Shown piece by piece: positions 4,943 through 52,718 of a stretch of DNA of 64,000 nucleotides. The stretch's first letter is position 1; each line of letters opens with the position of its first letter. Under the pieces are notes generated by a model. That model had not been told where the DNA came from, made no database searches, and was given only the letters and a program-made list of their open reading frames with translations. Origin of the DNA: a bacterium (GTDB lineage: Bacteria > UBP6 > UBA1177); the NCBI GenBank assembly GCA_022703485.1, contig JAKLDO010000004.1:1636-65635 (forward strand), written 5' to 3'. A program made the translations under genes and the position numbers.

Positions 4943-5100
4943 GAACCGACCTCTGAATCTGTGAATGTAAAATACCGGTAATCCGCAACAATAGGAAAAT
5001 ACTAATAAACCTGTTTTTTTCAAGAAAAAAGAGGTCTTAATAAAGTTTGAACTATCCTGAAAATATGATAATATCAGACAATTTTCTGATGGAGAAAAAA

Positions 5101-5739
5101 ATGAAACTAAGAATAGCATTCATCGGAGCCACCGAATCGGAGCTCAAATTCATAAAATTCTTCTCACTTCTTCCCGATTTTGAGATCGCACTGGTTTCAG
5201 AGGAGAGAAAAAACGCCGCAGGGATAAGATTTGCCGAAGAAAAACAGTACAGGACATCATCTTCATACATTGAAGTGCTGAAAATTCAGGATATTGATAT
5301 TATTGCCGTTCTCACACCCAATCAGGAAATATTCTCCCAGATATATAACACTTCAAAACCCGGGCAGACCGTTCTTGACAGGAAACATCTCATATTTTTT
5401 CATGAAGCCCTATCCTCTCTGATATCAAGCAAATATCTTTCAATTGAAGAAAACTTCAACCAGAACACAAAAGAGATCAAACGGGCCATTAGTGATTTCA
5501 GCCTGATCACCAAGAACATAGACATCCTTGCAATAAATGCATCCATAGAAGCTGCAAGGGCCGGAGAATCAGGAAAGGGTTTTGCAGTTGTCGCATCGAA
5601 CATAAAAAACCTTGTCAAAAGCAGCCGGGACATGCTTGTTCATGTAAAATCGGTTCTTGACAGATTTACAACTCTCAACGCACAGATGCAGGAAGTACGG
5701 GAATCCCTTCTTGAAAAAAAGAACGATCTTGATATCTGA
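5101..5739 (+). CDS. Rossmann-like (Gfo/Idh/MocA-type N-terminal) domain fused to a chemoreceptor (MCP) signalling-tip segment
   Basis: RBS GGAGAAAAAA precedes ATG 5101. The N-terminus is MKLRIAFIGATE...IDIIAVLTPNQ. The C-terminus ILAINASIEAARAGESGKGFAVVASNIKNLVKSS matches the invariant MCP hairpin-tip motif. Confidence 0.7.
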   Translation: MKLRIAFIGATESELKFIKFFSLLPDFEIALVSEERKNAAGIRFAEEKQYRTSSSYIEVLKIQDIDIIAVLTPNQEIFSQIYNTSKPGQTVLDRKHLIFFHEALSSLISSKYLSIEENFNQNTKEIKRAISDFSLITKNIDILAINASIEAARAGESGKGFAVVASNIKNLVKSSRDMLVHVKSVLDRFTTLNAQMQEVRESLLEKKNDLDI

Positions 5740-5740
5740 T

Positions 5741-6391
5741 CTATTTTTCTTCCTCAAACAACGATTTTCTGTATAACTGATCCGGAAAAACTATTCCCAA
5801 TGTTATTGAAGCCTTTCTTTCACCCACATTTTCGCTCATATCGTCAAAGAATTCGCGTGCATAGCCTTTTACAGTCTCGTTAAGTTCATCGACCGGTGCA
5901 TCGCTGTCATACCACCTGAGCTGTTCATCCCTTATTTTATCAAGCATTATATTGTAGTCATATTTTATAAGTTCAATGTCCTCTGCAGGTATCCCTTTCT
6001 CGACAAGTGCATTCTGAAGAAAACTTGTCCAGGACCTCTTCACCTCTTCAGCGTAATCCATCCAGAACTCATGTTTCTCCTTTTTATAGTCTTCAAGGGC
6101 TTTTGCGCCTCCGTTCTTTTTAAGAGTATCTATCTCCTCCCTCATCTTGTTGAGCTTTTTCTGAAGAACGACTGCTCCGGAAGCAAGGCCTTCGCCGTTT
6201 ACTTCTGAGCCCGATCTTTTAATTTCTTTTATTTCCAGCTTCAGATCTTCAATTTCCTTTGCAAGGTTCACCAGTTTCTTTTCAGAATTGTTCATTGAAC
6301 TTACGGCATACCATGAAATTGCTGCAAAGATAAGTGAAATCACGATCAGAAAAGTTATTATTATTCCGCTTTTTCCAGACATTTCATTCAT
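5741..6391 (-). CDS. membrane-anchored coiled-coil protein, hypothetical
   Basis: Start re-placed at ATG 6391 (AGGAGAGG RBS 9 nt upstream). One TM helix (GIIITFLIVISLIFAAISWYAV) is followed by a heptad-like K/E-rich region. The start overlaps the upstream stop by 8 nt. Confidence 0.6.
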   Translation of the reverse strand: MNEMSGKSGIIITFLIVISLIFAAISWYAVSSMNNSEKKLVNLAKEIEDLKLEIKEIKRSGSEVNGEGLASGAVVLQKKLNKMREEIDTLKKNGGAKALEDYKKEKHEFWMDYAEEVKRSWTSFLQNALVEKGIPAEDIELIKYDYNIMLDKIRDEQLRWYDSDAPVDELNETVKGYAREFFDDMSENVGERKASITLGIVFPDQLYRKSLFEEEK

Positions 6392-7214
6392 ATCTGCAAA
6401 CCTCTCCTGAGTTAAACTTTTCCATCCACCAGTCAAGCTGAACCGTTGAAAATCCGTTTTTAAGCAGATCCTCTCTGTCTTTTTTATTATATATTGAATT
6501 GTGTATATCACCCAGCAGAAACCGTTTTGAAATTCCGGCTTTCTTATCTTTCAAGGCCGCCGAGAAAAACTTTTCTCTGTCCGCTTCGTTAAAATATGGA
6601 AAGCAGAAACCCTTATAAAGTTCCATAAAATGTTTCCCGGAAATGCCGCTTTCTACATTTTTCACCTTTAGAGAATAAATGCCGTTTTTTGTAAAACCTT
6701 TTTCTGCCGATCTGGCGATATCTTTATTTGAAAGCATTATAACAGGTGCATTTTCAATCTTTTTTATTATCTTAACTACCAGGAAAAACACCCCTTTTTC
6801 AAATCTTCCTGAAAGTTTTGAATATCCCGTCTCTGAAACAGCTTTAAGCTTGCCTTCACTTTTACCGTTTACAAGAACCTCTCCTTCCATAACGCCGTAA
6901 ATGACAGCTTCAAAACCTGATGACTTCTGAATATCGAGATACAGATACCCGTATTCCTCGTTCTTTGAAAAACTCCGAAGAACCTTCAATCCGGCATTTT
7001 TGTCCATCTGCCTTTTTCCAGGTCTTGGAAGATTGTACAGTTCTATGAAAATATCCTTAAAATTATCATTTTTATCCAGATCATACCATTTGACGTATTC
7101 GTTCATATCACCGTAAAATACAGAAAAATATTTTTCCATACCGTCGGAAGCGGAAATTGAAGAGCATATAAAAAAGAAGGGGAGCAGAGCCCCCCTTATA
7201 AAAAACGATCTCAT
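6384..7214 (-). CDS. secreted hypothetical protein
   Basis: Signal peptide MRSFFIRGALLPFFFICSSISAS. It lies 6 nt downstream of the giant coiled-coil gene. No recognisable motif. Confidence 0.6.
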   Translation of the reverse strand: MRSFFIRGALLPFFFICSSISASDGMEKYFSVFYGDMNEYVKWYDLDKNDNFKDIFIELYNLPRPGKRQMDKNAGLKVLRSFSKNEEYGYLYLDIQKSSGFEAVIYGVMEGEVLVNGKSEGKLKAVSETGYSKLSGRFEKGVFFLVVKIIKKIENAPVIMLSNKDIARSAEKGFTKNGIYSLKVKNVESGISGKHFMELYKGFCFPYFNEADREKFFSAALKDKKAGISKRFLLGDIHNSIYNKKDREDLLKNGFSTVQLDWWMEKFNSGEVCRYE

Positions 7215-7220
7215 GATACC

Positions 7221-10200
7221 TTATTTAAGTTCTTCAAGAAGCAGTCTGGACTTAAGGTATATCTCATCTGTAGGAAGAAGGCTCTTCATAAGCATTTCAA
7301 GTATCTTGACCGATTTAGCCTTATTGGATTCTTTGGAACCGAAAGCTTCCCAGTACATAGCCTGAGCTTTTGTTCCTATTGACTTAAGACCTTCTTTTGC
7401 CGCTTTGCTTCCGGAATCAAGGAAAAGCGCATCAACGAAATCCTGTCTTGCAAGTGATATGTCACCTTTATCAAGTTTTTCAAGACCGCTCTTTGTATAA
7501 GCTTCAGCCATCATGGATTCAAGTTTCTTAGTGGTTCCTGTAACCTGAACTTCTCTTGCTGAAACCTCTTCATATTCTTTCTTGAAACGCTCCTGGACCA
7601 TCTTGAGCTCAGCTTCATTTATCTTTGCAAGAGTTTCATCATACTTCTTTGCGACCTGTTCTTTCTTGCCTTTTGCTGTATCTTTATCTTTGTCGGCAAG
7701 AGCACCTTTCTGGGATTCAGCTTTTTCTATTTCAGCTCTGATCTTCTCTATCTGAGCATCAAAACCCTGTTTTTTCTTTTCCCAGAGACCTTTTTCCTTT
7801 TCAAGGACAACCTGTCTCTTTTCTTTTCTTTTTTCTTTTTCAGCAAGAAGCTTATCTCTCTTAGCCATCATTTCTTTCTTCTGATTGTCTCTTTCAGCTT
7901 TTTCTTTAAGCTCCATATTATCATACTTGTCCTGAATGGCTTTCTTTGTATCTTCGTACCACTGCAGTTTCGCTTCAGCAGTTTTCTGCCATGCAGCTTC
8001 TTTTTTCTTGGATTCGGAATGCTGTTTTCCTTTCAGCTCTTCAAGTTTTCTCGACCACACATTGTTAACGCTCTCTATTTCACCTGTGATAGCATCGATC
8101 TGCTTATTGTTGGAATCAAGTCTTCCTCTTGAACCGGCAGTCTTTCTGTCAAAAGCACCCTGTCTCATCTCTTTCTCTTTTGCCCATGAAGCCTGCTGTT
8201 TTGCCCTTTCAGCTTTCCTTGCCTCTATCTTTCTGTCCCTTTCTTTCTGAGCTGCAGCGATCTGCTGATCGATCCCTTCCTTGAATTTTTTCTTATCCGC
8301 AAGGAATGTCTTGAATGTCTTTTCATACTCAGCCTTTTCGCCCTTCTTTTTCGCTGTAAAAGCCTTGTTCTCGTTCTGAAGTCTCTGATTTTCAGCTCCG
8401 AGTTTCATATCAAGTTCGCCAAGAAGTTTTTCATACTTCTGATCGATAGCGGTGATCTCTTTCTGTACGAAATCATCGTGTGATTTTTCATGAGCTGCGA
8501 GATCTTTTGAAACTTTTGCAAGATCAGCTTTAAGTTTTGAAAGTTCTTTGTTCCTTTCACCGGCGAGTTTTGCGATCTCAGCGGCAAGAGTTTTCTTAAA
8601 TCCGCCTTCAGCAAGGGCTTTCTGTTTTTCGAGAGTTCCGCTTTCCTTTTTTATGTCGCCTATTTTAGTTGCCTTTTCTTTCTGAAGAGCTGCAATATCA
8701 GCCTTCATCTTGTTCCTGACATCGGTGAACTTCTTTGCAATAGCCGCATGTTCAGCTTTTATCTGGGCATCAACACCTTTTGTGTTCGTAGAAGCCTGAT
8801 TCTTCTTTGCTGTCAGGTCAGCGATCACTGTTTTGTTCGCCTGAGTAAGGGCCTGAAGTTTTCCTGCTTTTTCCTTCTGAAGGTCATCTTTCTGCTTATT
8901 AAGGTCAGCCATTTCTTTTTCGAAAGGCGCCTTAACTTCTTTCAACTTTGCAGGATCGACAACATTTATTCTCTTTTCCCATGTTTTCATGGATGTGGAA
9001 ACTGCAGCAAGCTGTTTCTGATACTCGCCCATCTTAGCCCTTATTGATGACTTTTCTTTTTCAGCAAGATCTTTGTATTTTGCATTTATGCTGGCTTTTT
9101 CAGCATTGATGCTCTTAAGTTCGGCAGCTTTCTGGGCTGCAACAGCGGCCTTTCTTGATTTTACACTTGCAGCAATTGATTTTTCCTTTGCTGAAGCATC
9201 TGCGGCTATTTTCTTGGTTCCGCCGGTCTTCGCTGCCATTTTGGCCTTCTGAGCTGAAACAGCGGAAGCAACCTTTTTCTGGTGTGCACCGATAGCTGTT
9301 TCCTTATCTTTCTTGATAACAGCTATTTCCTTATTTATATTTATCAGCTCAAGGTTCTTTTCTTTCTCAAGTTTAGCCAGCTCCTGTTTGTTCTTTGCTA
9401 TCTCTCTTTCATATTTTGACTTCTCGAACTCGATTTTTCTTGAGTAACTGCTTTCTGCGAACTCGATCTTTCTTTCAGTCGATTTTTCATCAACTTCCAT
9501 TTTCCTAAGTACAGCGGAAAACTCTCTTTCAAGTTTTGCAAGCTCTGCCTTGTTATTCTTGTTAGCATCTTTCTTGTCTTCGAAGTCCTGTTTTGCACTT
9601 CCCTTCGCCTGTCTTATGGCATCAAGGATCTCCTGCTGTTTGTTAACTTCTTCTACTTTCTGATTATCAAGTTCAGCTATTGCCTGATTCATTTTATCCA
9701 CAATGGAATCAACACTGAAAGGAGCCATTTTCTGTTCGTAATTCTTATCAATAGCAGCAACTTTTTCATTAAGTTTTTCAAGCCTTTCATCAAATGATGA
9801 AGCTATTTTGCCTTCCTCTGCAGCAAATTCGCCCATCTGCTTTCCGAAAGCCTCTTCCTCTTTTGCATCATCAGATGCTGCTGATTCAAGATCTTTTGCC
9901 GCTTGCGCCCTGACAGCTTCGATCTCTTTCTGGATATCTTCTTCAACTTTTACCATTTTCTGAGCATAAACATCTTCTATACTGCCGAGTTTTGCATCTA
10001 TCTTATTGAGCTCATCCATTTTTTTCTGTTCGAACTTTCCATCGATCTCAGCTATCTTTCCTTTTTCTTCTTCGATCTGGGTTCTGAGCTTGTTTTCCTC
10101 AGCTGTGAGTTTGTCTATCTCTTTTCCAACAAAATCTCCCCAGTTAGCCTTGAAGCTTTCTGTAACTTCAACAAGCTTATTCTGGACATTCATTGTTTTT

Positions 10201-12389
10201 TCTTCGATCGCTGCGGTTTTTGCAGCATATTCATCATCCATTTTAGCTTTGGCTTCTTCATAACGGCCTGTCTCTGTGGCTATCTTCTCTTCAATGGAAC
10301 CGACTTCGGACAGAAGTTTTTCACTTTTCGCCCTGAGTTCGTTCTCTTTTTTCATCTTTTCATTTTCTTCATCTTCAGAAGTCTTTGCCACAGATTCCTG
10401 GATCTGAGATATCTTTGATTCGTATTCCTGCTCGATCTTTCCTACAGCCTCTTCGTTCTTTGCAAGTTTCTGATCAGCGGCAACGATATCCTTTTCGTTG
10501 GCCTTGATCATTTCGTCCTCTTTCTTTGCCTTCAGAGCCTCTGTTTCATCAGAATGCTTACTGACAGCCTCTTCGATCTTTGATTTAAGCTGTGTAAGTT
10601 CGTTCAGTTTTGTTTCATAGGCTTTTTCCGATTTCTGCTGGGCATCGGTCTTCACCTTTGCGTATTCAGCTTCTATTTCGGCGCGTTTCTTTTCTATGTC
10701 TTCCTGGATCTTGCCCATTGCGTTGGCGTTCTTGACCATGAATTCCTCGATCTCGCGGTCGAACTTCTCAAGTTCTTTTGACTTTCCGGATTCCTCGGAA
10801 TCGTATTTTGCAAGTTTCTGGTTCAATTCATCGAACTTCTTCTGATATTCCTTTTCAACTTCGACGCTGTATTTTCTGTCCTCGTCCTCATTCTTCATCT
10901 TGACACTTTCGTTCTCAGAAAGGATCTTCCTCTCTTCTTTGTCGAACTCATCGACCATCTTCTGTATCTCGGCATCTATCTCCTTGTTCTTGGCCTGAAG
11001 ATCTGCTTTTTTCTTTTCAAGTTCGGCTATCTTCTTGGTGATCCTTTCACCCTCGGATTTCTCGCCGCTCTTTCCGATCTCATAGTAATCGTCCTTTTCT
11101 TTCTGGAAAGCCTTTTTCCAGTCGTCATATGCTTTATCGTGAGCTTTGAACTCTTTATCCTTGTCCTCTTCCCTCTTCTTGTTGGTCACCTTGATGACAC
11201 CTTTTTCTCTCTGCTCGATCATCGTGATCTGGCTTTCGAGATTAACTATTTCCTGTTCAAGGCTGGAGTCGTCTTTCTCCCACTGATATTTCATTTCCTG
11301 TATTCTTTTCTTGAGTTCGCCTTCTGCGTCTTTCTGGGCTTTTACAGTATCACTCTCCTTTGTCTTGAGGTCTGCTATGGCCTTTTCGCGCTCTTTAATG
11401 TTATCATTAACCCACTTGTCAATATCAACATACTGCTTTGCTCTCCACTTTCTGGCCTCTTCGATCTTTGTTTTGAAAGATTTATGTATCTGGTCAACGA
11501 TCTCGGCATCGGCCGGATTGGGTGTGAGATATTTAAGACGGACATTCTTGTCCTTTTTGTAAGCCATATACTTGTAGCCCTGCTCGCGGATATTTTCATC
11601 AGATTTCTTGAGTTCTTCAAGCGTTCTGAGCGCGGACCTGTAGTCTCCTGCGCTCATTGAATCGGATGCTTTTGTAAGACCGGCTTTAACCTTTTCGACA
11701 TCATCGTAAAGCGATCTTGCGGTATCATTCTGCGAACAGTTGCATTTCATTTCATTTGCGGCGCGGTTGAAAACATCAGCGGCTTCATCAATGTCACCTT
11801 TGTCATATGCTTCAAAACCTTTTACTATCTCGCTTTTCACTTCCGTATATGACGCAAGCTTCTTGGAAGAGCTGGAACTGCTGCTTCTGGCCGTCTTGGT
11901 CTCTGAAGAGCCGTCTCCTGCTGACGAAACAAGCGATCTTATTGCACCGACCATGTCAGAAGCGATGTCTTCGCCATCTGAATCGGAACTTGCCGTGACA
12001 GGTTTGCTGCCGACCTTGTTAGCGTCTTTGTCGTACATGATGATGGAAACTCTTATTCCGGCGCCTTTTTCTATCTTGACCTTCGGAATGATCACATAGT
12101 CGAAGTTTCCGTCTTCAGTGACAACTTTCAAGATACACTTGCTGCTGTCCTCACATCTTGCCACAGCACTCCTCTGGGAACTTGTCAGACCTTCCTTGTC
12201 ACCGACAACAGATGCACCGCGTATTGTCGAGAAAAGAAGAGACAAGTTGCTTGTGATGTCCTTGGCAAGCTTCTGCTCTGCCGTGGTCTTTCCGCCTGTG
12301 GAAATGACAACGACCTTGCTTTCAGCAAATGCATTGAAAGAAACGAATAACACAGTCAACAAACCGATAACACTAATGATCCTTCTCAC
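7221..12389 (-). CDS. giant secreted coiled-coil protein (~1,722 aa), K/E-rich
   Basis: The likely start is GTG 12389 (AGGAGG, 5 nt, GTG); the ORF-track start at 12434 is upstream of the RBS. The signal peptide is VRRIISVIGLLTVLFVSFNAFA/ES. A ~130-aa beta/alpha module comes next, then a TPR-like segment. About 1,300 residues of uninterrupted K/E/A/Q heptad-like sequence follow. The C-terminus is TPR-like. Confidence 0.85.
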   Translation of the reverse strand: MRRIISVIGLLTVLFVSFNAFAESKVVVISTGGKTTAEQKLAKDITSNLSLLFSTIRGASVVGDKEGLTSSQRSAVARCEDSSKCILKVVTEDGNFDYVIIPKVKIEKGAGIRVSIIMYDKDANKVGSKPVTASSDSDGEDIASDMVGAIRSLVSSAGDGSSETKTARSSSSSSSKKLASYTEVKSEIVKGFEAYDKGDIDEAADVFNRAANEMKCNCSQNDTARSLYDDVEKVKAGLTKASDSMSAGDYRSALRTLEELKKSDENIREQGYKYMAYKKDKNVRLKYLTPNPADAEIVDQIHKSFKTKIEEARKWRAKQYVDIDKWVNDNIKEREKAIADLKTKESDTVKAQKDAEGELKKRIQEMKYQWEKDDSSLEQEIVNLESQITMIEQREKGVIKVTNKKREEDKDKEFKAHDKAYDDWKKAFQKEKDDYYEIGKSGEKSEGERITKKIAELEKKKADLQAKNKEIDAEIQKMVDEFDKEERKILSENESVKMKNEDEDRKYSVEVEKEYQKKFDELNQKLAKYDSEESGKSKELEKFDREIEEFMVKNANAMGKIQEDIEKKRAEIEAEYAKVKTDAQQKSEKAYETKLNELTQLKSKIEEAVSKHSDETEALKAKKEDEMIKANEKDIVAADQKLAKNEEAVGKIEQEYESKISQIQESVAKTSEDEENEKMKKENELRAKSEKLLSEVGSIEEKIATETGRYEEAKAKMDDEYAAKTAAIEEKTMNVQNKLVEVTESFKANWGDFVGKEIDKLTAEENKLRTQIEEEKGKIAEIDGKFEQKKMDELNKIDAKLGSIEDVYAQKMVKVEEDIQKEIEAVRAQAAKDLESAASDDAKEEEAFGKQMGEFAAEEGKIASSFDERLEKLNEKVAAIDKNYEQKMAPFSVDSIVDKMNQAIAELDNQKVEEVNKQQEILDAIRQAKGSAKQDFEDKKDANKNNKAELAKLEREFSAVLRKMEVDEKSTERKIEFAESSYSRKIEFEKSKYEREIAKNKQELAKLEKEKNLELININKEIAVIKKDKETAIGAHQKKVASAVSAQKAKMAAKTGGTKKIAADASAKEKSIAASVKSRKAAVAAQKAAELKSINAEKASINAKYKDLAEKEKSSIRAKMGEYQKQLAAVSTSMKTWEKRINVVDPAKLKEVKAPFEKEMADLNKQKDDLQKEKAGKLQALTQANKTVIADLTAKKNQASTNTKGVDAQIKAEHAAIAKKFTDVRNKMKADIAALQKEKATKIGDIKKESGTLEKQKALAEGGFKKTLAAEIAKLAGERNKELSKLKADLAKVSKDLAAHEKSHDDFVQKEITAIDQKYEKLLGELDMKLGAENQRLQNENKAFTAKKKGEKAEYEKTFKTFLADKKKFKEGIDQQIAAAQKERDRKIEARKAERAKQQASWAKEKEMRQGAFDRKTAGSRGRLDSNNKQIDAITGEIESVNNVWSRKLEELKGKQHSESKKKEAAWQKTAEAKLQWYEDTKKAIQDKYDNMELKEKAERDNQKKEMMAKRDKLLAEKEKRKEKRQVVLEKEKGLWEKKKQGFDAQIEKIRAEIEKAESQKGALADKDKDTAKGKKEQVAKKYDETLAKINEAELKMVQERFKKEYEEVSAREVQVTGTTKKLESMMAEAYTKSGLEKLDKGDISLARQDFVDALFLDSGSKAAKEGLKSIGTKAQAMYWEAFGSKESNKAKSVKILEMLMKSLLPTDEIYLKSRLLLEELK

Positions 12390-12458
12390 TGGACCCTCCT
12401 GTCTGAGCAATATGTTAATGCAACTAATACACAATCACTAAATTTATTAGTGCAAGGA

Positions 12459-12487
12459 AGGATATTAACGGAGTGACGGTTTGTCAA
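12459..12487 (-). promoter_or_regulatory. candidate sigma70-type promoter for the giant coiled-coil gene
   Basis: On the minus strand: TTGACA, 17 nt, TATCCT, about 70 nt upstream of GTG 12389. Confidence 0.35.
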
Positions 12488-12534: not shown

Positions 12535-13620
12535 TTACTTTATAGCGGATTCTATTTCAACAATGAAAGAATTGAATCTTTCCAGATCGGCACCTTTAAG
12601 GACATCCGGGGCAGTTTTATGGTACTTGAAAGGATCTATCACTCTGTCCTTCGATGTAGTGATCTGATAGTGCAGGTGAGGAGCAGTGGTCTTTCCGGTA
12701 TTTCCGGAAGCCCCGATCTGCTCACCCTTTTTCACTTTCTGGCCTTCGGCAACATCAACACCTGAAAGATGAAGATACTTGAAAAGATTAGGCTTATCTC
12801 TCTCTCTTATCTCAATGCAAAACCCGTTGTACCTTGTCATCCAGTTCTTTCTGACAACAGTTCCGTCAACAGTGGCATAGACCGGAGTGCCGACAACAGC
12901 CTTGAAATCCACGCCTTCATGTTTCGGAGAACGGTCGCCGATAACGCTTGTGACCTGTATATAATCCTTTACCGGAGGGTCCGGCACAATGTTCTTTTCT
13001 ATTCCAGAAGCATCGGCGTAATAATATTTTGCGAACCTTGCATCATCCTTCTTAAACCTGAATATCCGGATCTTTTTATTAAACTTTTTCGAATGATATG
13101 AAAGGTATATCATTTCTATGGCATCCGGCATGTCATTTCTCTCTTTTTTCTCCGCTAAAGGAACTATTCTGAACATGAAATCGATCCTGTCGCCTTTTCT
13201 CACATCGTTTCTGATCACGATATCCCATATCAGAAGCCGACCTACATGAGCGCTCAACAATTCGGAAAGATTGGAGATTCCCGATTCTTCTGAAAGTTTC
13301 AGTATCTCCTCATTGGAATTAAAAGCGGCAAAGAAACTGTCATCCACGGTCACAGATGCGATAATATGTTCACCTTCGGGGATCTTCCTTTTTTCAGGCT
13401 CTGCGCTTTTTTCCTTTTCTGAACCCGGAACACTGACCGCACCATCCTCTGTCTGAGATGATCCTTTATCCGCAGTACTGGAAATCGAAGACACCGCCTC
13501 ACTGTCATCATCTCCTGCATTCATGACAATGACAGTCAGAAGCACCATGTTCAGGATAAATGAAAGCAGAAACATCGTTTTCCATTTCTTAACCTGAGGA
13601 TTAGAGAAAAGATATGTCAT
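12535..13620 (-). CDS. M23 (LytM-type) peptidoglycan metalloendopeptidase, membrane-anchored
   Basis: An N-terminal TM helix and a Ser/Asp/Glu-rich linker are present. M23 signatures: HEGVDFKAVVGTPVYA and GNTGKTTAPHLHYQI. Confidence 0.9.
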   Translation of the reverse strand: MTYLFSNPQVKKWKTMFLLSFILNMVLLTVIVMNAGDDDSEAVSSISSTADKGSSQTEDGAVSVPGSEKEKSAEPEKRKIPEGEHIIASVTVDDSFFAAFNSNEEILKLSEESGISNLSELLSAHVGRLLIWDIVIRNDVRKGDRIDFMFRIVPLAEKKERNDMPDAIEMIYLSYHSKKFNKKIRIFRFKKDDARFAKYYYADASGIEKNIVPDPPVKDYIQVTSVIGDRSPKHEGVDFKAVVGTPVYATVDGTVVRKNWMTRYNGFCIEIRERDKPNLFKYLHLSGVDVAEGQKVKKGEQIGASGNTGKTTAPHLHYQITTSKDRVIDPFKYHKTAPDVLKGADLERFNSFIVEIESAIK

Positions 13621-15275
13621 TTTTCCCTCCTGAAAAGCGCAGAATAGAAAACAGAGTCTGTCTGCGATACAGCTTCAGCCTTTACGCTTCCGAATTCAGA
13701 AGCTATTTCGTTCAGCATGTGCTCGTTCTGTTTTTCATAGAAGAAAAAAGCGTAATCAGCATTCTTTAATGTGTTCGTACCGTTAATATCCTCTCTTATA
13801 ATGCCTTCTTTTTTAAGATACAGGAATGAGTTCCAGTTCAATCCTTCGTACCCGCCCATAACATAGACCGTTGAACGCGGAGGCGCTGTGCTGTTGAGTC
13901 TGTCCACCAGATCAAGAATATCGTAACCCCAGAAATTTCTTTGCATTCTAAGTTCAGCAGCTCCCTGTGCTCCGTCAAGGAACTCATTATAGAATGCGGC
14001 ACCCCTTTTTGCAAATTTGACATTCATCGGAACAAGTGCGACGGCGACCAGGAAAAAAACAGTTGCAGGGACAAGCTTCCGCTTCAGGCTTCCGCTTCCT
14101 GAAAACGCCTTGAGCTGTTCACTTATCACATAGACACCAGCTGTAAGCATCAGCGGATAACCTGTGAACCAGTGTTTTATTCCTCCGAATATGGGAACAC
14201 TTGGAATGGCGATAAGAAATACCGGAAAGAGCGAACCTGTTAGCATTGCTACGCTGATCTCTTTTTCCTTCCAGTCGCTCTTTTTGAAAATCCCTGATGA
14301 AAACAATATAATTCCCGCAAAAAAACAAAGAAGTTGCGGCACAGGCGTCGTAAAAAGTGTCATTCCGAAAGGATAGTTGAACGGGAAAGGCGGTTTTGCA
14401 AGCTCCATTCCGAAATAATAGTTCGTATAATTAACATGCAGTGTATGGAACGCAAGGTAGTTGCCGAACCTTTTAACGGTGTCGAACCATATCCAAGGCC
14501 AGACCATGAAATACACAGGAAGTGTGATGAAAATGAACATATAGAAAACTTTCGGAACTGATATGAAAAACTTCCTGAACCAGTTGCACCGGAGCTCTTT
14601 CCTGTATCCGAGCAGGTAGAATGTAAACCATCCTGCAAAAAGCAGTACCGGAATAAAAAATGCATTGTGTTTAGTTCCGAGCGCAAAACCGAGAAGTACC
14701 GCCGTCAGAACCCCTGAACTGAAAGAGCCGTTCTTCAGATGCACTGCGTACATGAAAAAGACAGCGCTCCAGAAAAAAAGTATCGGTATATCAAAGCAGG
14801 CAAGATGGGAATGGAAAAAAATATGCGGCATCATAAAAAACAGTACCGGAGACACGACCGCGGTGAACCTGCTGAAGAACATAAGCCCGAAAAAATAGAT
14901 AAGGACAGCCGTCAGCATGGCAAAGAACGCTCCGACGAACCTTGCAGACTGTGCAAAGCTCATCCATCCGAGCTTTCTTTCAAAAACATACTGTGAAAGA
15001 CCGAACAGGTTCTTCATTAAAGTCGGGTGTTCATTGTTGAATTTGAAATACTTATCTATTGAGGCTCTGCTGAAAGGTTCAAGGAACTTACCTTCGGCAA
15101 AACTTTTCTCCATTGATCCGAACCAGTCCGCAGTTATCGATGCGGCCCGCATGTAAAAACCTTCATCGCGTACAAAACCGACCATATCCGAAGTGAGATG
15201 AATGTAGAAAAATATAAAAAGCCCTATCGCCGCAGAGATAAAAATGTCCTTTCTGTGGATCGGATTCCAGTTCAT
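13617..15275 (-). CDS. GT39/ArnT-PMT-like membrane glycosyltransferase
   Basis: 552 aa and polytopic (more than 10 hydrophobic helices). The first loop has a DE motif (VRDEGFYM) typical of the GT-C PMT/ArnT fold. 4-nt overlaps with both neighbours. Confidence 0.75.
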   Translation of the reverse strand: MNWNPIHRKDIFISAAIGLFIFFYIHLTSDMVGFVRDEGFYMRAASITADWFGSMEKSFAEGKFLEPFSRASIDKYFKFNNEHPTLMKNLFGLSQYVFERKLGWMSFAQSARFVGAFFAMLTAVLIYFFGLMFFSRFTAVVSPVLFFMMPHIFFHSHLACFDIPILFFWSAVFFMYAVHLKNGSFSSGVLTAVLLGFALGTKHNAFFIPVLLFAGWFTFYLLGYRKELRCNWFRKFFISVPKVFYMFIFITLPVYFMVWPWIWFDTVKRFGNYLAFHTLHVNYTNYYFGMELAKPPFPFNYPFGMTLFTTPVPQLLCFFAGIILFSSGIFKKSDWKEKEISVAMLTGSLFPVFLIAIPSVPIFGGIKHWFTGYPLMLTAGVYVISEQLKAFSGSGSLKRKLVPATVFFLVAVALVPMNVKFAKRGAAFYNEFLDGAQGAAELRMQRNFWGYDILDLVDRLNSTAPPRSTVYVMGGYEGLNWNSFLYLKKEGIIREDINGTNTLKNADYAFFFYEKQNEHMLNEIASEFGSVKAEAVSQTDSVFYSALFRREK

Positions 15276-47917: not shown

Positions 47918-49219
47918 ATGAAAAAGTTGATGTTTGTGACGCTGTTCTTTATTTTTGCAGTCATTCCTTTTATTAACCTGACTGCTGATGACATGTATCC
48001 TAACATTGCTGTTGTCAACACTGATACCGACGGGTTGATCGGTGCAATAGAAAAAGCGGCGGCACAGCAGTTCTATATGGGTCACCCTGACATCTATGAT
48101 TTCCTTTTCATCTATACTACATTCAATCCTTCGATGGATATGCAGCAGGGACTTGCCATCCAGTATACCGTGCAGGGAATAAACCGTGATGCCGGCATTA
48201 TGAGCCCTTATGGCACACCTTCAGACTGGGGAAGCGCAGGCAAACTTTTGGGCGCAGCAAGAATGTGCAATATTGATCAGTATCCTGACAATCCCGATGT
48301 TGCAATATCAACAAACATCCTTTCTCCTTATGCAGGAATGTCAAGTGCCGAACTTCTTGCGCACGAATGGAGTCACTACTGGCTTGCTGCAATGGATTTC
48401 AAAAAAGAAGGGATGCTGGAAAATCATCCGGGACTGAGAGGTTGTGAAGGCGGCAATGAAAACGGGTGTGATCCCAACCAGCATTGGAGCGGTGATTTCA
48501 GTGACGGCAACTCTGTAATGTATGGCGGAGATATAACCGATAACGGTGACGGATCTTTCACTTATTATTTCGGCAATCCGAAAAAATACGGACCGCTTGA
48601 CCAGTATGTTATGGGACTGCGTGCTCCTGAAGAAGTGGGCGATCTTTTCTTTCTATGCTCAAGTGCTGACATCGAACAGTGCAGAGAAGGAAATCCCGCT
48701 GTTCCGGCTCCGAAATCTTCAGCTCCCAGTACAAAGACAGGTGTTTACAAACATGTTGTGACTATGGATGACATTATCCGTGCAATGGGACCGAGAATTC
48801 CGTCATCTGCTGAATCACAGAAACATTTCAATGTCGCATTTATAATTGCAAATAAAAACGGATTCTATCCATTCCCTCAGCAGCTGCAGAAACTTGAAAC
48901 GCTCAGAGTCCGCATGCAGGAATGGTTTACATGGGCGACAGACGGCAGAGGAACAATATGCACAGAGCTTGACGGAGACTGTGAGAACAATACCGGCAAT
49001 GATGACGACATTATTCCTGATGTGGATGCCTTTGTTCCTGACAATAATATTACAACTGATGAAGAAATCACACCAGATGAATCAGTTACAGATAACAACA
49101 TAACCCCTGACGAAACTGATGAAGAGATAAAAGACGAAAACACAGAAACTCCAGATAACAGCATAGATCAGCCTGCTGATGAAGAAGAAGCCGGTTGCGG
49201 CTGTACATTAGTTTTCTAA
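47918..49219 (+). CDS. secreted putative zinc metallopeptidase (HExxH), paralog A, with acidic tail ending GCGCTLVF
   Basis: Signal peptide MKKLMFVTLFFIFAVIPFINLTA. Motif AELLAHEWSHYW. An ~80-aa D/E/T/P-rich tail leads to the terminal EEEAGCGCTLVF. Confidence 0.8.
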   Translation: MKKLMFVTLFFIFAVIPFINLTADDMYPNIAVVNTDTDGLIGAIEKAAAQQFYMGHPDIYDFLFIYTTFNPSMDMQQGLAIQYTVQGINRDAGIMSPYGTPSDWGSAGKLLGAARMCNIDQYPDNPDVAISTNILSPYAGMSSAELLAHEWSHYWLAAMDFKKEGMLENHPGLRGCEGGNENGCDPNQHWSGDFSDGNSVMYGGDITDNGDGSFTYYFGNPKKYGPLDQYVMGLRAPEEVGDLFFLCSSADIEQCREGNPAVPAPKSSAPSTKTGVYKHVVTMDDIIRAMGPRIPSSAESQKHFNVAFIIANKNGFYPFPQQLQKLETLRVRMQEWFTWATDGRGTICTELDGDCENNTGNDDDIIPDVDAFVPDNNITTDEEITPDESVTDNNITPDETDEEIKDENTETPDNSIDQPADEEEAGCGCTLVF

Positions 49220-49239
49220 ATATTTTTTACGAGGACGGA

Positions 49240-50538
49240 ATGAAAAGATCACTTTTTATCGTTATCATTTTTCTGTTTCCTTTATCAGCTGTCTATGCCG
49301 ATGACATGTATCCTAACATCGCACTTATCCAGACAGATGCTGACAACCAGATGATAATGGGTGTTACAGAGAAAGCAGCCGCCAATATTTTTTATCAGAC
49401 ACACCCTGATATTTATGACTTTCTGATATTCTACCACACATTCACTCCTCAGCTGAACATGCAGCAGGGACTTCTGATAACATACACCGTTAAAGGCATA
49501 GGAAGGGAGGGATACAACCCTACAGGCCCTGCATCTGCGTGGGGTAGCGGAGGCAGACTGATGGGCGGAGCAAGGATGTGTCATATCGATCAGTATCCAG
49601 ACGATCCTGATGATAACATGAAATTTCCCCTTGCCGGTCTTACAAGCACCGAGCTCCTTGCTCACGAAATGAGCCATTACTGGTTCGCCGCAATGGAATA
49701 TAAAAAAGAAGGTATGGAAAAAAATCATCCCGGTTTCAGAGGTTGTGAAGGTAACAGCGGCGAGAACGGAGCTTGCTCTCCCAATCAGCACTGGAGCTAC
49801 TATTTCAATTCAGGACCTTCTGTCATGTATGGAAGCGACATCACTGACAACGGTGACGGATCGTTCACTTTCACTCATTCCAGTCCGAGAAAATACAGCC
49901 CTTTCGATCAGTATGTGATGGGGTTCCGCGCTCCGGGTGAAGTCGGAGAACTTTTCTATCTTTGCGATTATGCGGACGAATCGATGTGCAAAGAAGGCAA
50001 TCCGGCTCTTCCGACTCCTCATACTGCGGCTCCCGATACTGTTTCAGGAAAGACAAAAATCGCTTTCACGATTGATGATGTGATCCGCGCAATGGGCGAA
50101 AGGGTCCCATCTTCTACTGATGCACCGAAACATTTCAATGTCGGTTTCATCATGGTCAGCAAACCGGGATTCGTTCCGTTCCCTCAGCAGCTTGAAAAAC
50201 TCGAAAAGATAAGAGTCCGTTTCCAGGAATGGTTTACATGGGCGACGGACGGTAGAGCCACGATATGCACAGAGCTTGACGGCGACTGTGAAAGCACAGA
50301 GACTCCTGATGACGACGACCCCGTGATAGATGATGACAGCATTGTTGTCGAAGATAACACCGTGATCCCTGATGAAGAAGTGACACCCGATGAATCAGTG
50401 ACGGATAACACCGTATCTCCCGATGAAACAGTTCAAGATGAAGAAGTTAAAGATGAAAATTCTGAAACTCCCGACAACAACACAGAACAGCCCGCTGATG
50501 AAGAAGAAGTCGGTTGCGGCTGTACGATAGTTTTCTAG
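49240..50538 (+). CDS. secreted putative zinc metallopeptidase (HExxH), paralog B, with acidic tail ending GCGCTIVF
   Basis: ATG 49240 follows GAGGA. Signal peptide MKRSLFIVIIFLFPLSAVYA. Motif TELLAHEMSHYW. By eye it is about two-thirds identical to paralog A. The terminus is EEEVGCGCTIVF. Confidence 0.8.
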   Translation: MKRSLFIVIIFLFPLSAVYADDMYPNIALIQTDADNQMIMGVTEKAAANIFYQTHPDIYDFLIFYHTFTPQLNMQQGLLITYTVKGIGREGYNPTGPASAWGSGGRLMGGARMCHIDQYPDDPDDNMKFPLAGLTSTELLAHEMSHYWFAAMEYKKEGMEKNHPGFRGCEGNSGENGACSPNQHWSYYFNSGPSVMYGSDITDNGDGSFTFTHSSPRKYSPFDQYVMGFRAPGEVGELFYLCDYADESMCKEGNPALPTPHTAAPDTVSGKTKIAFTIDDVIRAMGERVPSSTDAPKHFNVGFIMVSKPGFVPFPQQLEKLEKIRVRFQEWFTWATDGRATICTELDGDCESTETPDDDDPVIDDDSIVVEDNTVIPDEEVTPDESVTDNTVSPDETVQDEEVKDENSETPDNNTEQPADEEEVGCGCTIVF

Positions 50539-50545
50539 ATCTATT

Positions 50546-51463
50546 TTACTCTTCCAGTTCAGATATTGTGTCTTCGGAATCTGCAACGGCAGGTGTTTTC
50601 TTTTTGACGGTGACTGCGTTGTTGGTCTCGGTCGATTCAAGTTCGCTGAATGCGTCTCCGCCCATTCCTTTGCTTTTTACTGCGGGAGCGGCCGCTGCCT
50701 TCTGTTCACAACCTTTCTTGAAACCTGAGTCGCATGCGGCTTTGAAATGGACTTGTGCATCGTTCATGCTTTTATTTCCGCCGAGTCCTTTCTTGAACAT
50801 ATTGCCGGCATAGTAGCATGCTTTTGCATGTCCGTAATTGCAGGCATATGAGAAATGGCTTCTTGCAAAGATCTGGTTTTTCATACCTTCAACACCGTTA
50901 TACCACATCACGCCGAGCTTGAAACATGCAGTAGCATCTTTTTTAGTTTCACAGCTGTATTTAAGCTTCTCCCTTGCACTTTCCGCCACCGTTCCGCCGT
51001 TCTTAATAGCGTTGAGGAGCTTTTCAGCCACAACTTTAGCACCTGACGGAAGCGACTGGGCATCAGGAATTGTCTCGGTGGTGGCAAGATCTATCTTTGC
51101 CGTTTCAATGTCTATCATCCTTATCGTGATGATAAACTGGTTCCCGAGATTGCCGAAAGTGCCGGTTATAAGCTTTTTGATAGCAAGGAACTTTCCGAGC
51201 TCGACCGCCTGCTCAGGGTCGATTATTCCGCTCATCATAAGCCCGTGCTCATCAAGCACCTTTTTCAGCTGGTTCCTTTCGACAAGTTCGATCTTTTTAT
51301 CAGCCGAAAGCTCGGAAATGATTATTCCCGTAACCGTTGCCGCGTAATCTTTAAAATATGTACCGCCGTCAAGATCAAGCACTGCGACTTTCGTGCTTTG
51401 CGCAAAGATCATGAACGGAACAAACATCAGAAATAACACAGCAGCGAACAACACCTTTTTCAT
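50546..51463 (-). CDS. secreted protein: TolB-N/CsgG/LpoB-like beta-alpha module + three Hcp-type Sel1 repeats
   Basis: Signal peptide MKKVLFAAVLFLMFVPFMIFA. The module reads KVAVLDLDG...ELVERNQLKKVL...LITGTFGNLGNQFIITIRMIDIETAKI. C-x7-C pairs are SCETKKDATC, ACNYGHAKAC and ACDSGFKKGC. ATG 51475 is an alternative start. Confidence 0.65.
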   Translation of the reverse strand: MKKVLFAAVLFLMFVPFMIFAQSTKVAVLDLDGGTYFKDYAATVTGIIISELSADKKIELVERNQLKKVLDEHGLMMSGIIDPEQAVELGKFLAIKKLITGTFGNLGNQFIITIRMIDIETAKIDLATTETIPDAQSLPSGAKVVAEKLLNAIKNGGTVAESAREKLKYSCETKKDATACFKLGVMWYNGVEGMKNQIFARSHFSYACNYGHAKACYYAGNMFKKGLGGNKSMNDAQVHFKAACDSGFKKGCEQKAAAAPAVKSKGMGGDAFSELESTETNNAVTVKKKTPAVADSEDTISELEE

Positions 51464-51475
51464 ATCATCCTCCAT

Positions 51476-52711: not shown

Positions 52712-52718
52712 GACACTC

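What the first reader, a model, noticed from the sequence alone, without database searches (positions are those of the whole stretch)
7221..12389. Roughly 1,720-aa Sec-exported K/E-rich coiled-coil giant, far longer than a periplasm is wide
A cleavable signal peptide (…SFNAFA/ES) precedes a ~130-aa beta/alpha module (KVVVISTGG...DYVIIPKVKIEKGAGIRVSIIMYDKDANKVG). This module has the same pattern as the N-terminal module of the 50546-51463 protein. A TPR-like segment follows, then about 1,300 residues of essentially uninterrupted heptad-like K/E/A/Q sequence, then a C-terminal TPR-like cap.

At about 0.15 nm per residue, a continuous helix would be on the order of 200 nm. An exported protein of that length must lie along the envelope, loop back on itself, or be extracellular.

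The gene has its own candidate promoter. It is followed by two co-oriented small exported or membrane genes (6384-7214, 5741-6391). It is preceded by an M23 peptidase and a GT39-like transferase. That context is reminiscent of cell-shape or periplasmic scaffold systems, such as the Csd peptidases plus coiled-coil-rich proteins in helical bacteria.
Basis: partly seen in the sequence, partly recalled or inferred. Interest (0 to 1): 0.62.

Follow-up and report, generated by a model that had tools for sequence, protein, structure and literature searches.

The report
Exported giant coiled-coil hairpin rod
This 1,722-residue exported protein of an uncultured wastewater bacterium most likely folds back on itself into a ~97 nm two-stranded rod with a small head, built like the arm of a chromosome-organising SMC protein but placed outside the cytoplasm, and it belongs to an undescribed family with rods of several fixed lengths.

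Summary
The gene is real. The ORF is 7221-12389(-), 1,722 aa, with a GTG start 5 nt after AGGAGG. It is intact and syntenic in four other uncultured genomes, with a fifth, partial giant keeping the upstream gene order. It is present in at least 20 metagenome runs and is transcribed in situ.

Two points need correcting:
- The hydrophobic repeat is ~3.63 residues, not heptad. The rod is also not an ER/K single helix.
- The rod is not one ~200 nm helix. The acidic N-half pairs antiparallel with the basic C-half in a fixed register (i+j about 1896).

Four results support the antiparallel pairing:
- Five of five independent segments pick that same register.
- Shorter relatives carry a Pro/Asn loop at their predicted apex.
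- An AlphaFold model of a relative breaks its helix there and pairs the two termini.
- Natural deletion variants are symmetric about the apex.

The likely form is a hairpin of ~97 nm with a composite TPR-like head.

No Pfam or NCBIfam model covers the family. Function is inferred only: a fixed-length envelope strut or scaffold. The M23/GT39 neighbourhood is confined to the giant clade.

The parts
12459..12487 (-). Promoter-like site (TTGACA-17-TATCCT) in the 145-bp gap upstream of the gene
   Evidence: This is a consensus match only. An RNA contig (12147-12494) runs past it, so read-through from the M23 gene is not excluded.
12387..12400 (-). Shine-Dalgarno AGGAGG (12395-12400) and GTG start codon (12387-12389)
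   Evidence: The residues encoded from this start are conserved in all orthologs. The JGI gene call starts 12 codons downstream and cuts into the signal peptide.
12324..12389 (-). Sec-type signal peptide, residues 1-22 (MRRIISVIGLLTVLFVSFNAFA | ES)
   Evidence: Read from the sequence and conserved across the family. No lipobox.
11916..12323 (-). TolB-N/PelC-like alpha/beta domain, residues 23-158, with the invariant CxxxxxC pair (C79, C85)
   Evidence: AF2 topology. In the first Foldseek search 15 of the top 17 hits are TolB, aligned over ~120-145 columns. With the homolog's model the hits are the TolB N-domain (rmsd 3.9-4.3 A) and PelC (TMt ~0.5). The Cys pair is invariant in A4 and in the alignment.
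11862..11915 (-). Ser-rich disordered linker, residues 159-176. Every indel among the orthologs lies in residues 111-175.
   Evidence: pLDDT below 50.
11517..11861 (-). N-terminal TPR-like helical module (residues 177-280) and the clasp strand (281-291, KNVRLKYLTPN)
   Evidence: AF2 helices 181-288, pLDDT 75-89. In the homolog's model the equivalent strand 283-291 is predicted together with C-terminal strand 949-957. Weak TPR hits by Foldseek.
9555..11516 (-). N-arm of the rod, residues 292-945; net charge -28 to -35 in all five orthologs
9543..9554 (-). Predicted apex of the hairpin, residues ~946-949 (KDANKNNK region)
   Evidence: This is the centre of the antiparallel charge complementarity, 947-949. 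It is inferred by register only. Unlike the shorter relatives, there is no Pro or Gly here.
7578..9542 (-). C-arm of the rod, residues 950-1604; net charge about +40 to +53 over residues 900-1620
7224..7577 (-). C-terminal clasp strand (AREVQVTGT) and TPR-like cap, residues 1605-1722
   Evidence: The profile hits TPR proteins in the PDB. Some members match Pfam TPR families. The equivalent region of the homolog's AF2 model has pLDDT of about 90.
7177..7197 (-). Terminator-like hairpin plus T-run, 24 nt after the stop codon and inside the first codons of the next gene
   Evidence: RNA contigs cover the giant gene but not 6152-6919. This is weak evidence.
6384..7214 (-). Downstream 276-aa exported protein with no family match, syntenic in the giant-clade genomes examined
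5741..6391 (-). Downstream 216-aa protein with one N-terminal membrane helix and a coiled-coil segment, syntenic in the giant-clade genomes examined
12535..13620 (-). Upstream membrane-anchored M23 peptidase, MepM/ShyA-like, with the HxxxD and HxH motifs present
   Evidence: Synteny holds down to the giant that is 54% identical.
13617..15275 (-). Upstream PMT/GT39-like multi-pass glycosyltransferase; its stop overlaps the M23 start
   Evidence: (PF02366, E 8e-6).

Best explanation
The gene encodes a Sec-exported 'head-and-stalk' protein.

Proposed structure:
- After signal-peptide cleavage there is a TolB-N/PelC-like alpha/beta domain, probably disulfide-bonded.
- A flexible Ser-rich linker ties this domain to a composite head.
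- The head is formed where the N-terminal TPR-like module and the C-terminal TPR-like cap meet, with a short two-stranded beta clasp between them.
- The ~1,310 residues in between form one long antiparallel two-stranded coiled coil. The acidic N-arm (292-945) runs out to an apex at about residue 948. The basic C-arm (950-1604) runs back in register i+j about 1896.
- That gives a rod of about 97 nm with a nearly straight hydrophobic seam (period ~3.63).

What is shown and what is inferred: the antiparallel register is shown. The fold-back within one chain is inferred from homologs.

Proposed function (inferred): the rod is a rigid strut, spacer or scaffold of fixed length in the cell envelope. 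The head and the tethered TolB-N-like domain would dock it to envelope partners. In this clade it is probably made and used together with the co-encoded membrane-anchored M23 endopeptidase, the PMT-like glycosyltransferase and two small exported or membrane proteins. The glycosyltransferase may O-glycosylate the Ser-rich linkers.
For: THE GENE IS REAL
- Orthologs of 1,717-1,729 aa are intact and syntenic in four genomes. A fifth giant is partial on its contig.
- The sequence is present in at least 20 metagenome runs and 3 metatranscriptome runs.

EXPORT
- The signal peptide is conserved.
- The protein has only four Cys. One pair (C79/C85) is invariant across the family; the other (C216/C218) is kept in every giant-type sequence aligned.
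- The N-domain fold has periplasmic matches: TolB and PelC.

THE ROD IS HELICAL AND AMPHIPATHIC
- Period 3.6-3.65, z about 17.
- The hydrophobic phase stays coherent over stretches of several hundred residues.
- Hydrophobic residues make up 22% and E+K+R 37%.

ANTIPARALLEL PAIRING
- The two halves carry opposite net charge in all orthologs.
- The global charge anticorrelation has its minimum at centre 947-949 for every smoothing window tried.
- Five of five independent 120-aa segments pick S=1892-1899 out of 622 possible registers. The parallel control is scattered. None of 200 block permutations reaches 3-of-5 agreement.
- The conservation profiles of the two arms correlate best at S=1894-1895.
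- That register pairs the start of the rod (292) with its end (~1604).

FOLD-BACK WITHIN ONE CHAIN
- In 6 of 9 relatives of ~1,050 aa, the charge centre falls on a conserved Pro/Asn-rich loop, EDKY(P/N)NYEKK.
- P0089's best register (S=1249) equals the value predicted from the giant's register.
- P0089 has an 11-aa deletion exactly at that loop.
- The AF2 model of P0090 (9-sequence alignment, pLDDT 80) breaks its helix at 619-625, against a predicted centre of 624.5. It also predicts strands at 283-291 and 949-957, whose positions sum to 1240 against a register of 1249.
- Foldseek's top hits for that model are MukB, condensin, JetC, Smc5/6, the cohesin elbow and Rad50/SbcC.
- The natural rod-less relative P0091 lacks P0084 residues 320-905. 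Their sum is 1225, against a register of 1229.

LENGTH CONSTRAINT
- There are no indels from residue 176 to the C-terminus among orthologs of 61-92% identity.
- Only 3 gap positions occur over 774 aa at 54% identity.
- The rod of the ~1,050-aa class is nearly gap-free at 21-44% identity.
Against: - No structure prediction of the window protein's own apex was possible. Its apex region (KDANKNNK or RAALKDNK in the orthologs) has no Pro or Gly. An intermolecular antiparallel dimer of ~195 nm therefore fits the giant's own data equally well.
- The conservative 40-aa block-shuffle control for the global scan gave p of about 0.03 only.
- The AF2 output gives no contacts, and pTM is low (0.37).
- Function is wholly inferred. 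No neighbour is conserved across the whole family.
- No outer-membrane marker genes lie in the window, and the phylum is unnamed, so 'periplasmic' as opposed to 'surface or secreted' is not established.
- The absence of indels could reflect only the need to keep two arms in register. It does not prove that length itself is under selection.
Confidence: 0.55

Rival explanations
1. The same antiparallel register, but between two chains. Two molecules lie head-to-tail, the acidic half of one against the basic half of the other. That would make a ~195 nm rod with an N-terminal module of one chain and a C-terminal cap of the other at each end.
For: The charge and conservation analyses cannot tell intra-chain from inter-chain pairing. 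The giant's centre (residues 940-955) has no Pro or Gly and looks helical in some orthologs.
Against: Homologs have a conserved turn motif and an AF2 helix break at the centre. Natural variants delete or extend the rod symmetrically around the centre within one chain, including a rod-less form. A monomer AF2 model already brings the two termini together.
Confidence: 0.2
2. One reading: one continuous extended helix, either as a parallel in-register coiled-coil dimer or as an ER/K single alpha-helix, about 200 nm long.
For: Long uninterrupted helical prediction and K/E richness.
Against: A parallel in-register dimer would stack a -30 arm on a -30 arm and a +45 arm on a +45 arm. The parallel-lag control shows no consistent register. 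E+K+R is 37% with 22% hydrophobic residues and a strong hydrophobic moment, which is unlike a single alpha-helix. i to i+4 salt-bridge pairs are barely above expectation.
Confidence: 0.05
3. The hairpin rod is not periplasmic. It is displayed on or released from the cell surface as a stand-off barrier or fibril, as with enterococcal PrgA, whose ~40 nm antiparallel stalk keeps cells apart.
For: Foldseek matches PrgA (6z9l). PrgA protrudes ~40 nm and acts as a physical barrier (bioRxiv 10.1101/2020.06.18.156562). Two shorter relatives have a CAP-domain gene immediately downstream. A 97 nm rod does not fit across a normal periplasm. The envelope type of the organism is unknown.
Against: No LPXTG, lipobox, beta-barrel, SLH or known secretion tag was seen (and the sequence itself). 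The N-domain's structural matches, TolB and PelC, are periplasmic. In PrgA the functional domain sits at the apex, whereas here the apex is a bare loop. The 672-aa relative sits next to an OmpA/Pal-like gene.
Confidence: 0.15
4. A cytoplasmic SMC/Rad50-like protein whose start codon was miscalled.
For: SMC-family proteins are the top fold matches. The JGI gene call starts inside the signal peptide.
Against: There is no ATPase head or hinge. Pfam and NCBIfam give no hits at all. A strong Shine-Dalgarno sequence precedes the upstream GTG. The hydrophobic N-terminus is conserved as protein in 15 members. Paired conserved Cys are present.
Confidence: 0.02

Closest known systems
SMC-family arms (MukB, Smc, JetC, Rad50/SbcC)
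   Same: A long intramolecular antiparallel two-stranded coiled coil brings the N- and C-terminal modules together at one end. Arm length is strongly conserved. The ~1,050-aa relatives have arms of ~320 residues, about 47 nm, the same as the ~47 nm bacterial Smc arm (PMC5344682). These are the top fold matches.
   Different: There is no ABC ATPase head, no hinge or zinc hook, and no kleisin. The protein is exported by Sec rather than cytoplasmic. The head is TPR-like. The giant's arms are about twice as long. There is no sequence similarity.
TolB (N-terminal domain) and PelC/CsgG-like lipoproteins
   Same: The fold of residues 23-158. These are periplasmic proteins.
   Different: No beta-propeller, no lipobox, and no sequence-level match to Pfam TolB_N, CsgG or LpoB.
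Enterococcal PrgA
   Same: An extracytoplasmic protein with a very long antiparallel coiled-coil stalk (~40 nm) that acts as a physical spacer. It is a Foldseek hit.
   Different: PrgA is anchored to a Gram-positive cell wall and carries its CAP domain at the far tip. Here the globular parts are at the base and the tip is a loop.
Coiled-coil spacers and rulers in general (review PMC5082667); Thermotoga Omp-alpha and Braun's lipoprotein Lpp (from my own knowledge)
   Same: Rigid coiled coils whose conserved length sets a distance in the envelope.
   Different: Those are short, parallel oligomers with SLH, membrane or lipid anchors. This protein is an antiparallel hairpin of 97 nm with none of those anchors.
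CpoB/YbgF of the Tol-Pal cluster (from my own knowledge; PMC4458516 came up in the search)
   Same: A periplasmic protein that combines a coiled coil with a TPR domain and is linked to coordination of peptidoglycan remodelling.
   Different: CpoB is ~260 aa with a short trimeric parallel coil. No sequence match was found.

Membership tests
SMC / Rad50 / MukB family | Long intramolecular antiparallel coiled-coil arm | tested here: met
   The register is shown for the window protein; the fold-back is shown only for homologs.
SMC / Rad50 / MukB family | Split ABC-type ATPase head (Walker A at the N-terminus, Walker B/signature at the C-terminus) | tested here: not met
   Pfam and NCBIfam give no hit. 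The termini are a TolB-N-like domain and TPR-like modules.
SMC / Rad50 / MukB family | Hinge or zinc-hook dimerisation module at the apex | tested here: not met
   The apex is a 4-7 residue loop in homologs. No CxxC is present.
TolB | N-terminal alpha/beta domain | tested here: met
   Foldseek, probability ~1.0, rmsd 3.9-6 A over ~140 columns. This holds at fold level only; there is no sequence match.
TolB | C-terminal six-bladed beta-propeller that binds Pal | tested here: not met
   Everything after residue 180 is helical.
ER/K single alpha-helix (SAH) | Composition dominated by E/K/R, with no hydrophobic seam | tested here: not met
   E+K+R 37%, hydrophobic residues 22%, hydrophobic periodicity z about 17.
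Canonical heptad (left-handed, parallel) coiled coil | 3.5-residue hydrophobic period with a/d register and its harmonics | tested here: not met
   The peak lies at 3.60-3.65. There is no signal at period 7. Autocorrelation lags are 7, 11, 18, 29, 40 ... 163.
TPR proteins | 34-residue helix-turn-helix motif matching TPR profiles | tested here: met
   The C-cap family profile hits TPR proteins in the PDB (best E 7e-5) and members match Pfam TPR_2/TPR_19 weakly. This amounts to about one to two motifs. The N-terminal module has only weak Foldseek TPR hits.
   An M23 gene is adjacent, but only in the giant clade. From my own knowledge, Helicobacter Ccrp proteins are cytoplasmic. No morphology data exist.
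PrgA-like surface stalk proteins | Cell-wall anchor (LPXTG) and a CAP domain at the stalk tip | tested here: not met
   Neither feature is in the sequence, and Pfam gives no hit.

The most novel reading that the evidence does not exclude
An undescribed family of extracytoplasmic 'SMC-arm-like' rods serves as envelope rulers. The same head carries hairpins of discrete lengths: none, ~19, ~47 and ~97 nm. New lengths arise by symmetric insertion or deletion at the apex. Rod length would set a physical dimension of the cell envelope, for example the width of an enlarged periplasm or sheath, or the spacing at which the co-encoded M23 endopeptidase cuts peptidoglycan.
Probability: 0.2. Interest if true: 0.85.

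Novelty: new variant of a known kind. Interest (0 to 1): 0.66.

Why it matters
Long antiparallel coiled-coil arms are known mainly from cytoplasmic DNA-handling ATPases and from a few Gram-positive surface proteins. This looks like the same design used outside the cytoplasm, with no motor, in a bacterial lineage with no cultured or named relatives.

The family offers a natural length series (rod-less, ~130, ~320 and ~655 residues per arm) with almost no indels within each class. That is the pattern expected of a molecular spacer, and it makes the idea testable by swapping lengths.

It also shows that charge complementarity alone can reveal the register of a 1,300-residue coiled coil directly from sequence.

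Tried and rejected
- Pfam and NCBIfam on the whole protein and on its N- and C-terminal parts gave no family. The only exception was weak TPR matches in the cap.
- A PDB sequence-profile search with the N-domain found nothing meaningful.
- BLASTP and hhalign of the N-domain against the 309-aa CsgG-like protein showed no similarity.
- A word-index homology search with the full protein timed out. With the central 300 aa it found nothing.
- An exact look-up of the 1,722-aa product found nothing, because JGI called a shorter start.
- Internal duplication as the origin of the extra ~665 central residues: hhalign between the four arm quarters was not significant. A long off-diagonal self-alignment is probably a composition effect.
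- A fold-back at the Pro890 break was my first guess. It was rejected because the charge register centres at 948, not ~895.
- Phage tape-measure or fibre relationship: the viral fold library returned SbcC/SMC-like proteins only.
- Taxonomy: all NCBI names are '[bacterium]' and one genome is labelled Spirochaetales. Rfam found no rRNA in the window. Two paper searches on the MAG names were uninformative.
- A search for conserved neighbours across the whole family found none beyond the giant clade.
- No outer-membrane marker genes were found in the window.
Full report

The ORF runs 7221..12434 on the minus strand. Of the possible starts, GTG at 12389 is preceded by AGGAGG with a 5-nt spacer. The residues encoded from that start are conserved as protein in every relative. 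The product is therefore 1,722 aa.

It begins MRRIISVIGLLTVLFVSFNAFA|ESK. That is a basic n-region, a 13-15 residue hydrophobic core and an A-x-A site, with no lipobox. JGI's automatic call starts 12 codons further in and cuts through this peptide, which is why an exact look-up of the 1,722-aa product failed.

The protein has 17% K, 13% E, 11.5% A, 8 Pro and 4 Cys.

The gene is not an assembly artefact:
- Full-length orthologs of 1,717-1,729 aa lie in four species-level genomes, with identical gene order: valS, nadC, a 300-aa gene, GT39-like, M23, the giant, a 276-aa gene, a 216-aa gene, a convergent MCP-domain gene, pheS, pheT.
- A further giant, 54% identical, keeps the GT39-M23-giant order.
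- The DNA is found in at least 20 wastewater or anaerobic-digester metagenome runs from at least 15 studies, and in three metatranscriptome runs.
- RNA contigs cover the giant gene more than its neighbours.

Every named relative is labelled just '[bacterium]'. The lineage is uncultured and its phylum is unnamed.

**2. Anatomy of the ends**

AlphaFold2 on residues 1-549, with a 4-sequence alignment, gave mean pLDDT 65. It predicts:
- a b-a-b-a-a-b-b-b-a domain at residues 25-157;
- a disordered Ser-rich linker at 159-176;
- a helical module at 181-288;
- long helices after that.

In Foldseek against the PDB, 15 of the top 17 hits are TolB, aligned over ~120-145 columns. With the better model of a homolog, the same domain matches the TolB N-domain at 3.9-4.3 A and PelC at TMt ~0.5.

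No sequence method sees this relationship.

That protein hits Pfam CsgG (E 4e-6). BLASTP and a family-profile hhalign show no similarity between it and the giant's domain.

A CxxxxxC pair (C79/C85) is invariant across the whole family. The giant's only other Cys form a second pair (C216/C218), kept in every giant-type sequence aligned. That pattern fits an oxidising, extracytoplasmic location.

The family profile of the C-terminal ~118 residues hits almost only TPR proteins in the PDB, best E 7e-5. The 'TPR-like cap' therefore stands.

**3. The rod is amphipathic and helical, but neither heptad nor a single alpha-helix**

- The locally averaged hydrophobic power spectrum peaks at 3.60-3.65 residues (z about 17, against z about 10 at 3.5). 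There is nothing at period 7.
- The BLOSUM autocorrelation peaks at lags 7, 11, 18, 29, 40, 58, 76, 145 and 163, which corresponds to a period near 3.63 that stays coherent beyond 160 residues.
- Phase tracking shows three long coherent stretches, ~300-885, ~900-1390 and ~1420-1620.
- E+K+R is only 37%, against 22% large hydrophobic residues. i to i+4 acid-base pairs are barely above expectation. An ER/K single alpha-helix is excluded.

**4. The two halves pair antiparallel**

In all five orthologs, residues 292-885 carry a net charge of -28 to -35, and residues 900-1620 carry +40 to +53.

I scanned every possible antiparallel register for local charge anticorrelation. The result is one sharp minimum at centre 947-949 (r from -0.24 to -0.63, depending on the window; z from -3.5 to -5). 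It appears for every smoothing window and in every ortholog. A deliberately conservative 40-aa block shuffle still reached that value in 9 of 300 trials.

The stronger test is segment-wise:
- Five non-overlapping 120-aa pieces of the N-half each choose i+j = 1892-1899 as the best of 622 registers.
- The equivalent parallel scan gives five unrelated lags.
- None of 200 permutations of C-half blocks reaches even 3-of-5 agreement.

An independent signal, the per-column conservation of the two halves, also correlates best at i+j = 1894-1895 (rank 1-5 of 1,000).

This register pairs the first rod residue (292) with the last (~1604). The N-terminal TPR-like module and the C-terminal cap therefore end up side by side.

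**5. Relatives show that the pairing is a fold-back within one chain**

A full HMMER pass over 1.84 billion representative proteins, using the N-terminal profile, found only 28 hits. Among them are nine full-length proteins of 1,025-1,066 aa and one of 672 aa, all with the same architecture.

- **Apex loop.** In 6 of the 9 proteins of ~1,050 aa, the charge scan centres on a conserved Pro/Asn-rich motif, EDKY(P/N)NYEKK..(W/Y) or DPKY(D/E)K.
- **P0089.** It aligns without gaps to the giant's residues 219-576 and 1281-1539. Its best register is S=1249, exactly the value obtained by transferring the giant's register through that alignment (1896-647). It also has an 11-residue deletion precisely at the apex loop.
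- **AF2 on P0090.** The 9-sequence alignment gave mean pLDDT 80. The model has a helix at 410-618, a loop at 619-625 (the charge centre is 624.5) and a helix again from 626. It predicts strands at 283-291 and 949-957, whose positions sum to 1240 against a register of 1249, and a well-defined head.
- **Fold matches.** Foldseek's best matches for that model are MukB (E 5e-7 over 1,082 columns), condensin, JetC, Smc5/6, the cohesin elbow and Rad50. PrgA and chemoreceptor hairpins also appear. In the viral library the top hits are SbcC/SMC-like proteins.
- **A natural rod-less variant.** P0091 is 57-65% identical to P0084 but lacks its residues 320-905. Their sum is 1225, against P0084's independently derived register of 1229.

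Relative to P0089, the giant therefore has ~665 extra residues inserted symmetrically at the apex, centred on residue 948.

Arm lengths across the family are roughly 0, ~130, ~320 and ~655 residues, or about 0, 19, 47 and 97 nm at ~0.148 nm per residue.

For the giant itself, the apex (KDANKNNK, or RAALKDNK in other orthologs) has no Pro or Gly. An inter-chain antiparallel dimer therefore remains possible for this particular protein.

**6. Length constraint**

- Among five orthologs of 61-92% identity, every indel lies in residues 111-175, in and just before the Ser-rich linker. From residue 176 to the C-terminus there are none.
- The rod is more conserved than the N-domain, with 51-68% invariant columns over most of its length (35-38% in the 1001-1200 stretch) against 36-38%.
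- At 54% identity there are 3 gap positions in 774 aa.
- At 21-44% identity, the rod of the ~1,050-aa class is nearly gap-free.

Part of this must come from the need to keep two arms in register. The narrow length classes suggest that length itself also matters. Coiled coils with conserved length are a recognised class of molecular spacers (PMC5082667). Bacterial Smc arms are tuned at ~47 nm (PMC5344682).

**7. Function**

Nothing here measures function.

The context is an uninterrupted run of envelope genes: a membrane-anchored 300-aa protein, a PMT/GT39-like GT-C transferase, a membrane-anchored M23 endopeptidase with intact HxxxD and HxH motifs (MepM/ShyA-like), the giant, an exported 276-aa protein, and a single-pass 216-aa coiled-coil protein.

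That context is specific to the giant clade. Shorter relatives sit beside unrelated genes. One is next to an OmpA/Pal-like gene, one precedes alanine racemase, and two precede a CAP-domain gene.

My best reading is a rigid strut or scaffold of fixed length in the envelope, docked through its head and its tethered TolB-N-like domain. At 97 nm it cannot cross an ordinary periplasm. It must lie along the wall, or span an unusually wide compartment, or project from the cell.

A side idea is that the PMT-like enzyme O-glycosylates the Ser-rich linkers of the giant and of the M23 protein.

**8. Verdict**

- The '200 nm helix' becomes a ~97 nm antiparallel hairpin.
- 'Heptad' becomes a period of ~3.63.
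- The cell-shape analogy remains untested.
- The family is unannotated and rare. Its architecture is SMC-arm-like, exported and motor-less, and I found no description of such a family. I rate it a new variant of a known kind, of fairly high interest.

Noticed in passing
window 47918-49219(+) and 49195-50538(+): Two tandem paralogous exported proteins (433 and 447 aa) with no Pfam hit. They carry an HExxH-like motif (AHEWSHYW / AHEMSHYW) and an acidic D/E/T/P-rich tail. Both end in the same unusual sequence, ...EE(A/V)GCGCT(L/I)VF, which may be a sorting or lipidation tag.
   Followed up: no
window 50546-53933(-): Three co-oriented exported proteins or lipoproteins: a 309-aa CsgG-like protein with a Sel1-like region, a 416-aa protein with no family match, and a 404-aa DUF6175 lipoprotein with lipobox LFSSC. 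This may be another envelope module.
   Followed up: partly
window 7177-7197(-): A strong terminator-like hairpin with a T-run lies 24 nt after the giant's stop codon, inside the signal-peptide codons of the next gene. Metatranscriptome contigs cover the giant gene but not 6152-6919. This hints at attenuation between the two genes.
   Followed up: partly
window 12354-12389(-); L006: JGI's gene call for the giant (1,710 aa) starts 12 codons downstream of the GTG that follows the Shine-Dalgarno sequence. That removes most of the signal peptide, so automatic annotation would score the protein as cytoplasmic.
   Followed up: yes
L005 2-3426: On one ENA contig the giant is split into 865-aa and 289-aa products with overlapping frames. 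This is a likely frameshift or assembly error in that sample.
   Followed up: no
P0091 (750 aa; metagenome protein): A rod-less family member. It has a thioredoxin-like N-terminal region, then the composite head (N-terminal TPR-like module joined almost directly to the C-cap), then a TolB-N-like domain at the C-terminus. It is either a permuted architecture or the start of a tandem second copy cut off by the contig end.
   Followed up: partly
L010 7717-8799; L013 6878-7981: Two relatives of ~1,050 aa have a CAP-domain (PF00188, weak) protein encoded immediately downstream. The structurally similar stalk protein PrgA carries a CAP domain at its tip.
   Followed up: no
L012 4168-4695: The 672-aa family member lies 24 bp downstream of a 175-aa OmpA-domain (Pal-like) gene. 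This suggests a peptidoglycan-associated partner for the short form.
   Followed up: no
window 5047-5739(+): A small soluble protein with a Rossmann-like N-terminal half and an MCP signalling domain. It is convergent with the cluster and conserved in that position in the four orthologous genomes (L001-L004).
   Followed up: no
window 12535-13620(-) and residues 159-176 of the giant: Both the M23 peptidase and the giant carry Ser-rich linkers, and both lie directly downstream of a PMT/GT39-like glycosyltransferase. The linkers may be its O-glycosylation substrates.
   Followed up: no
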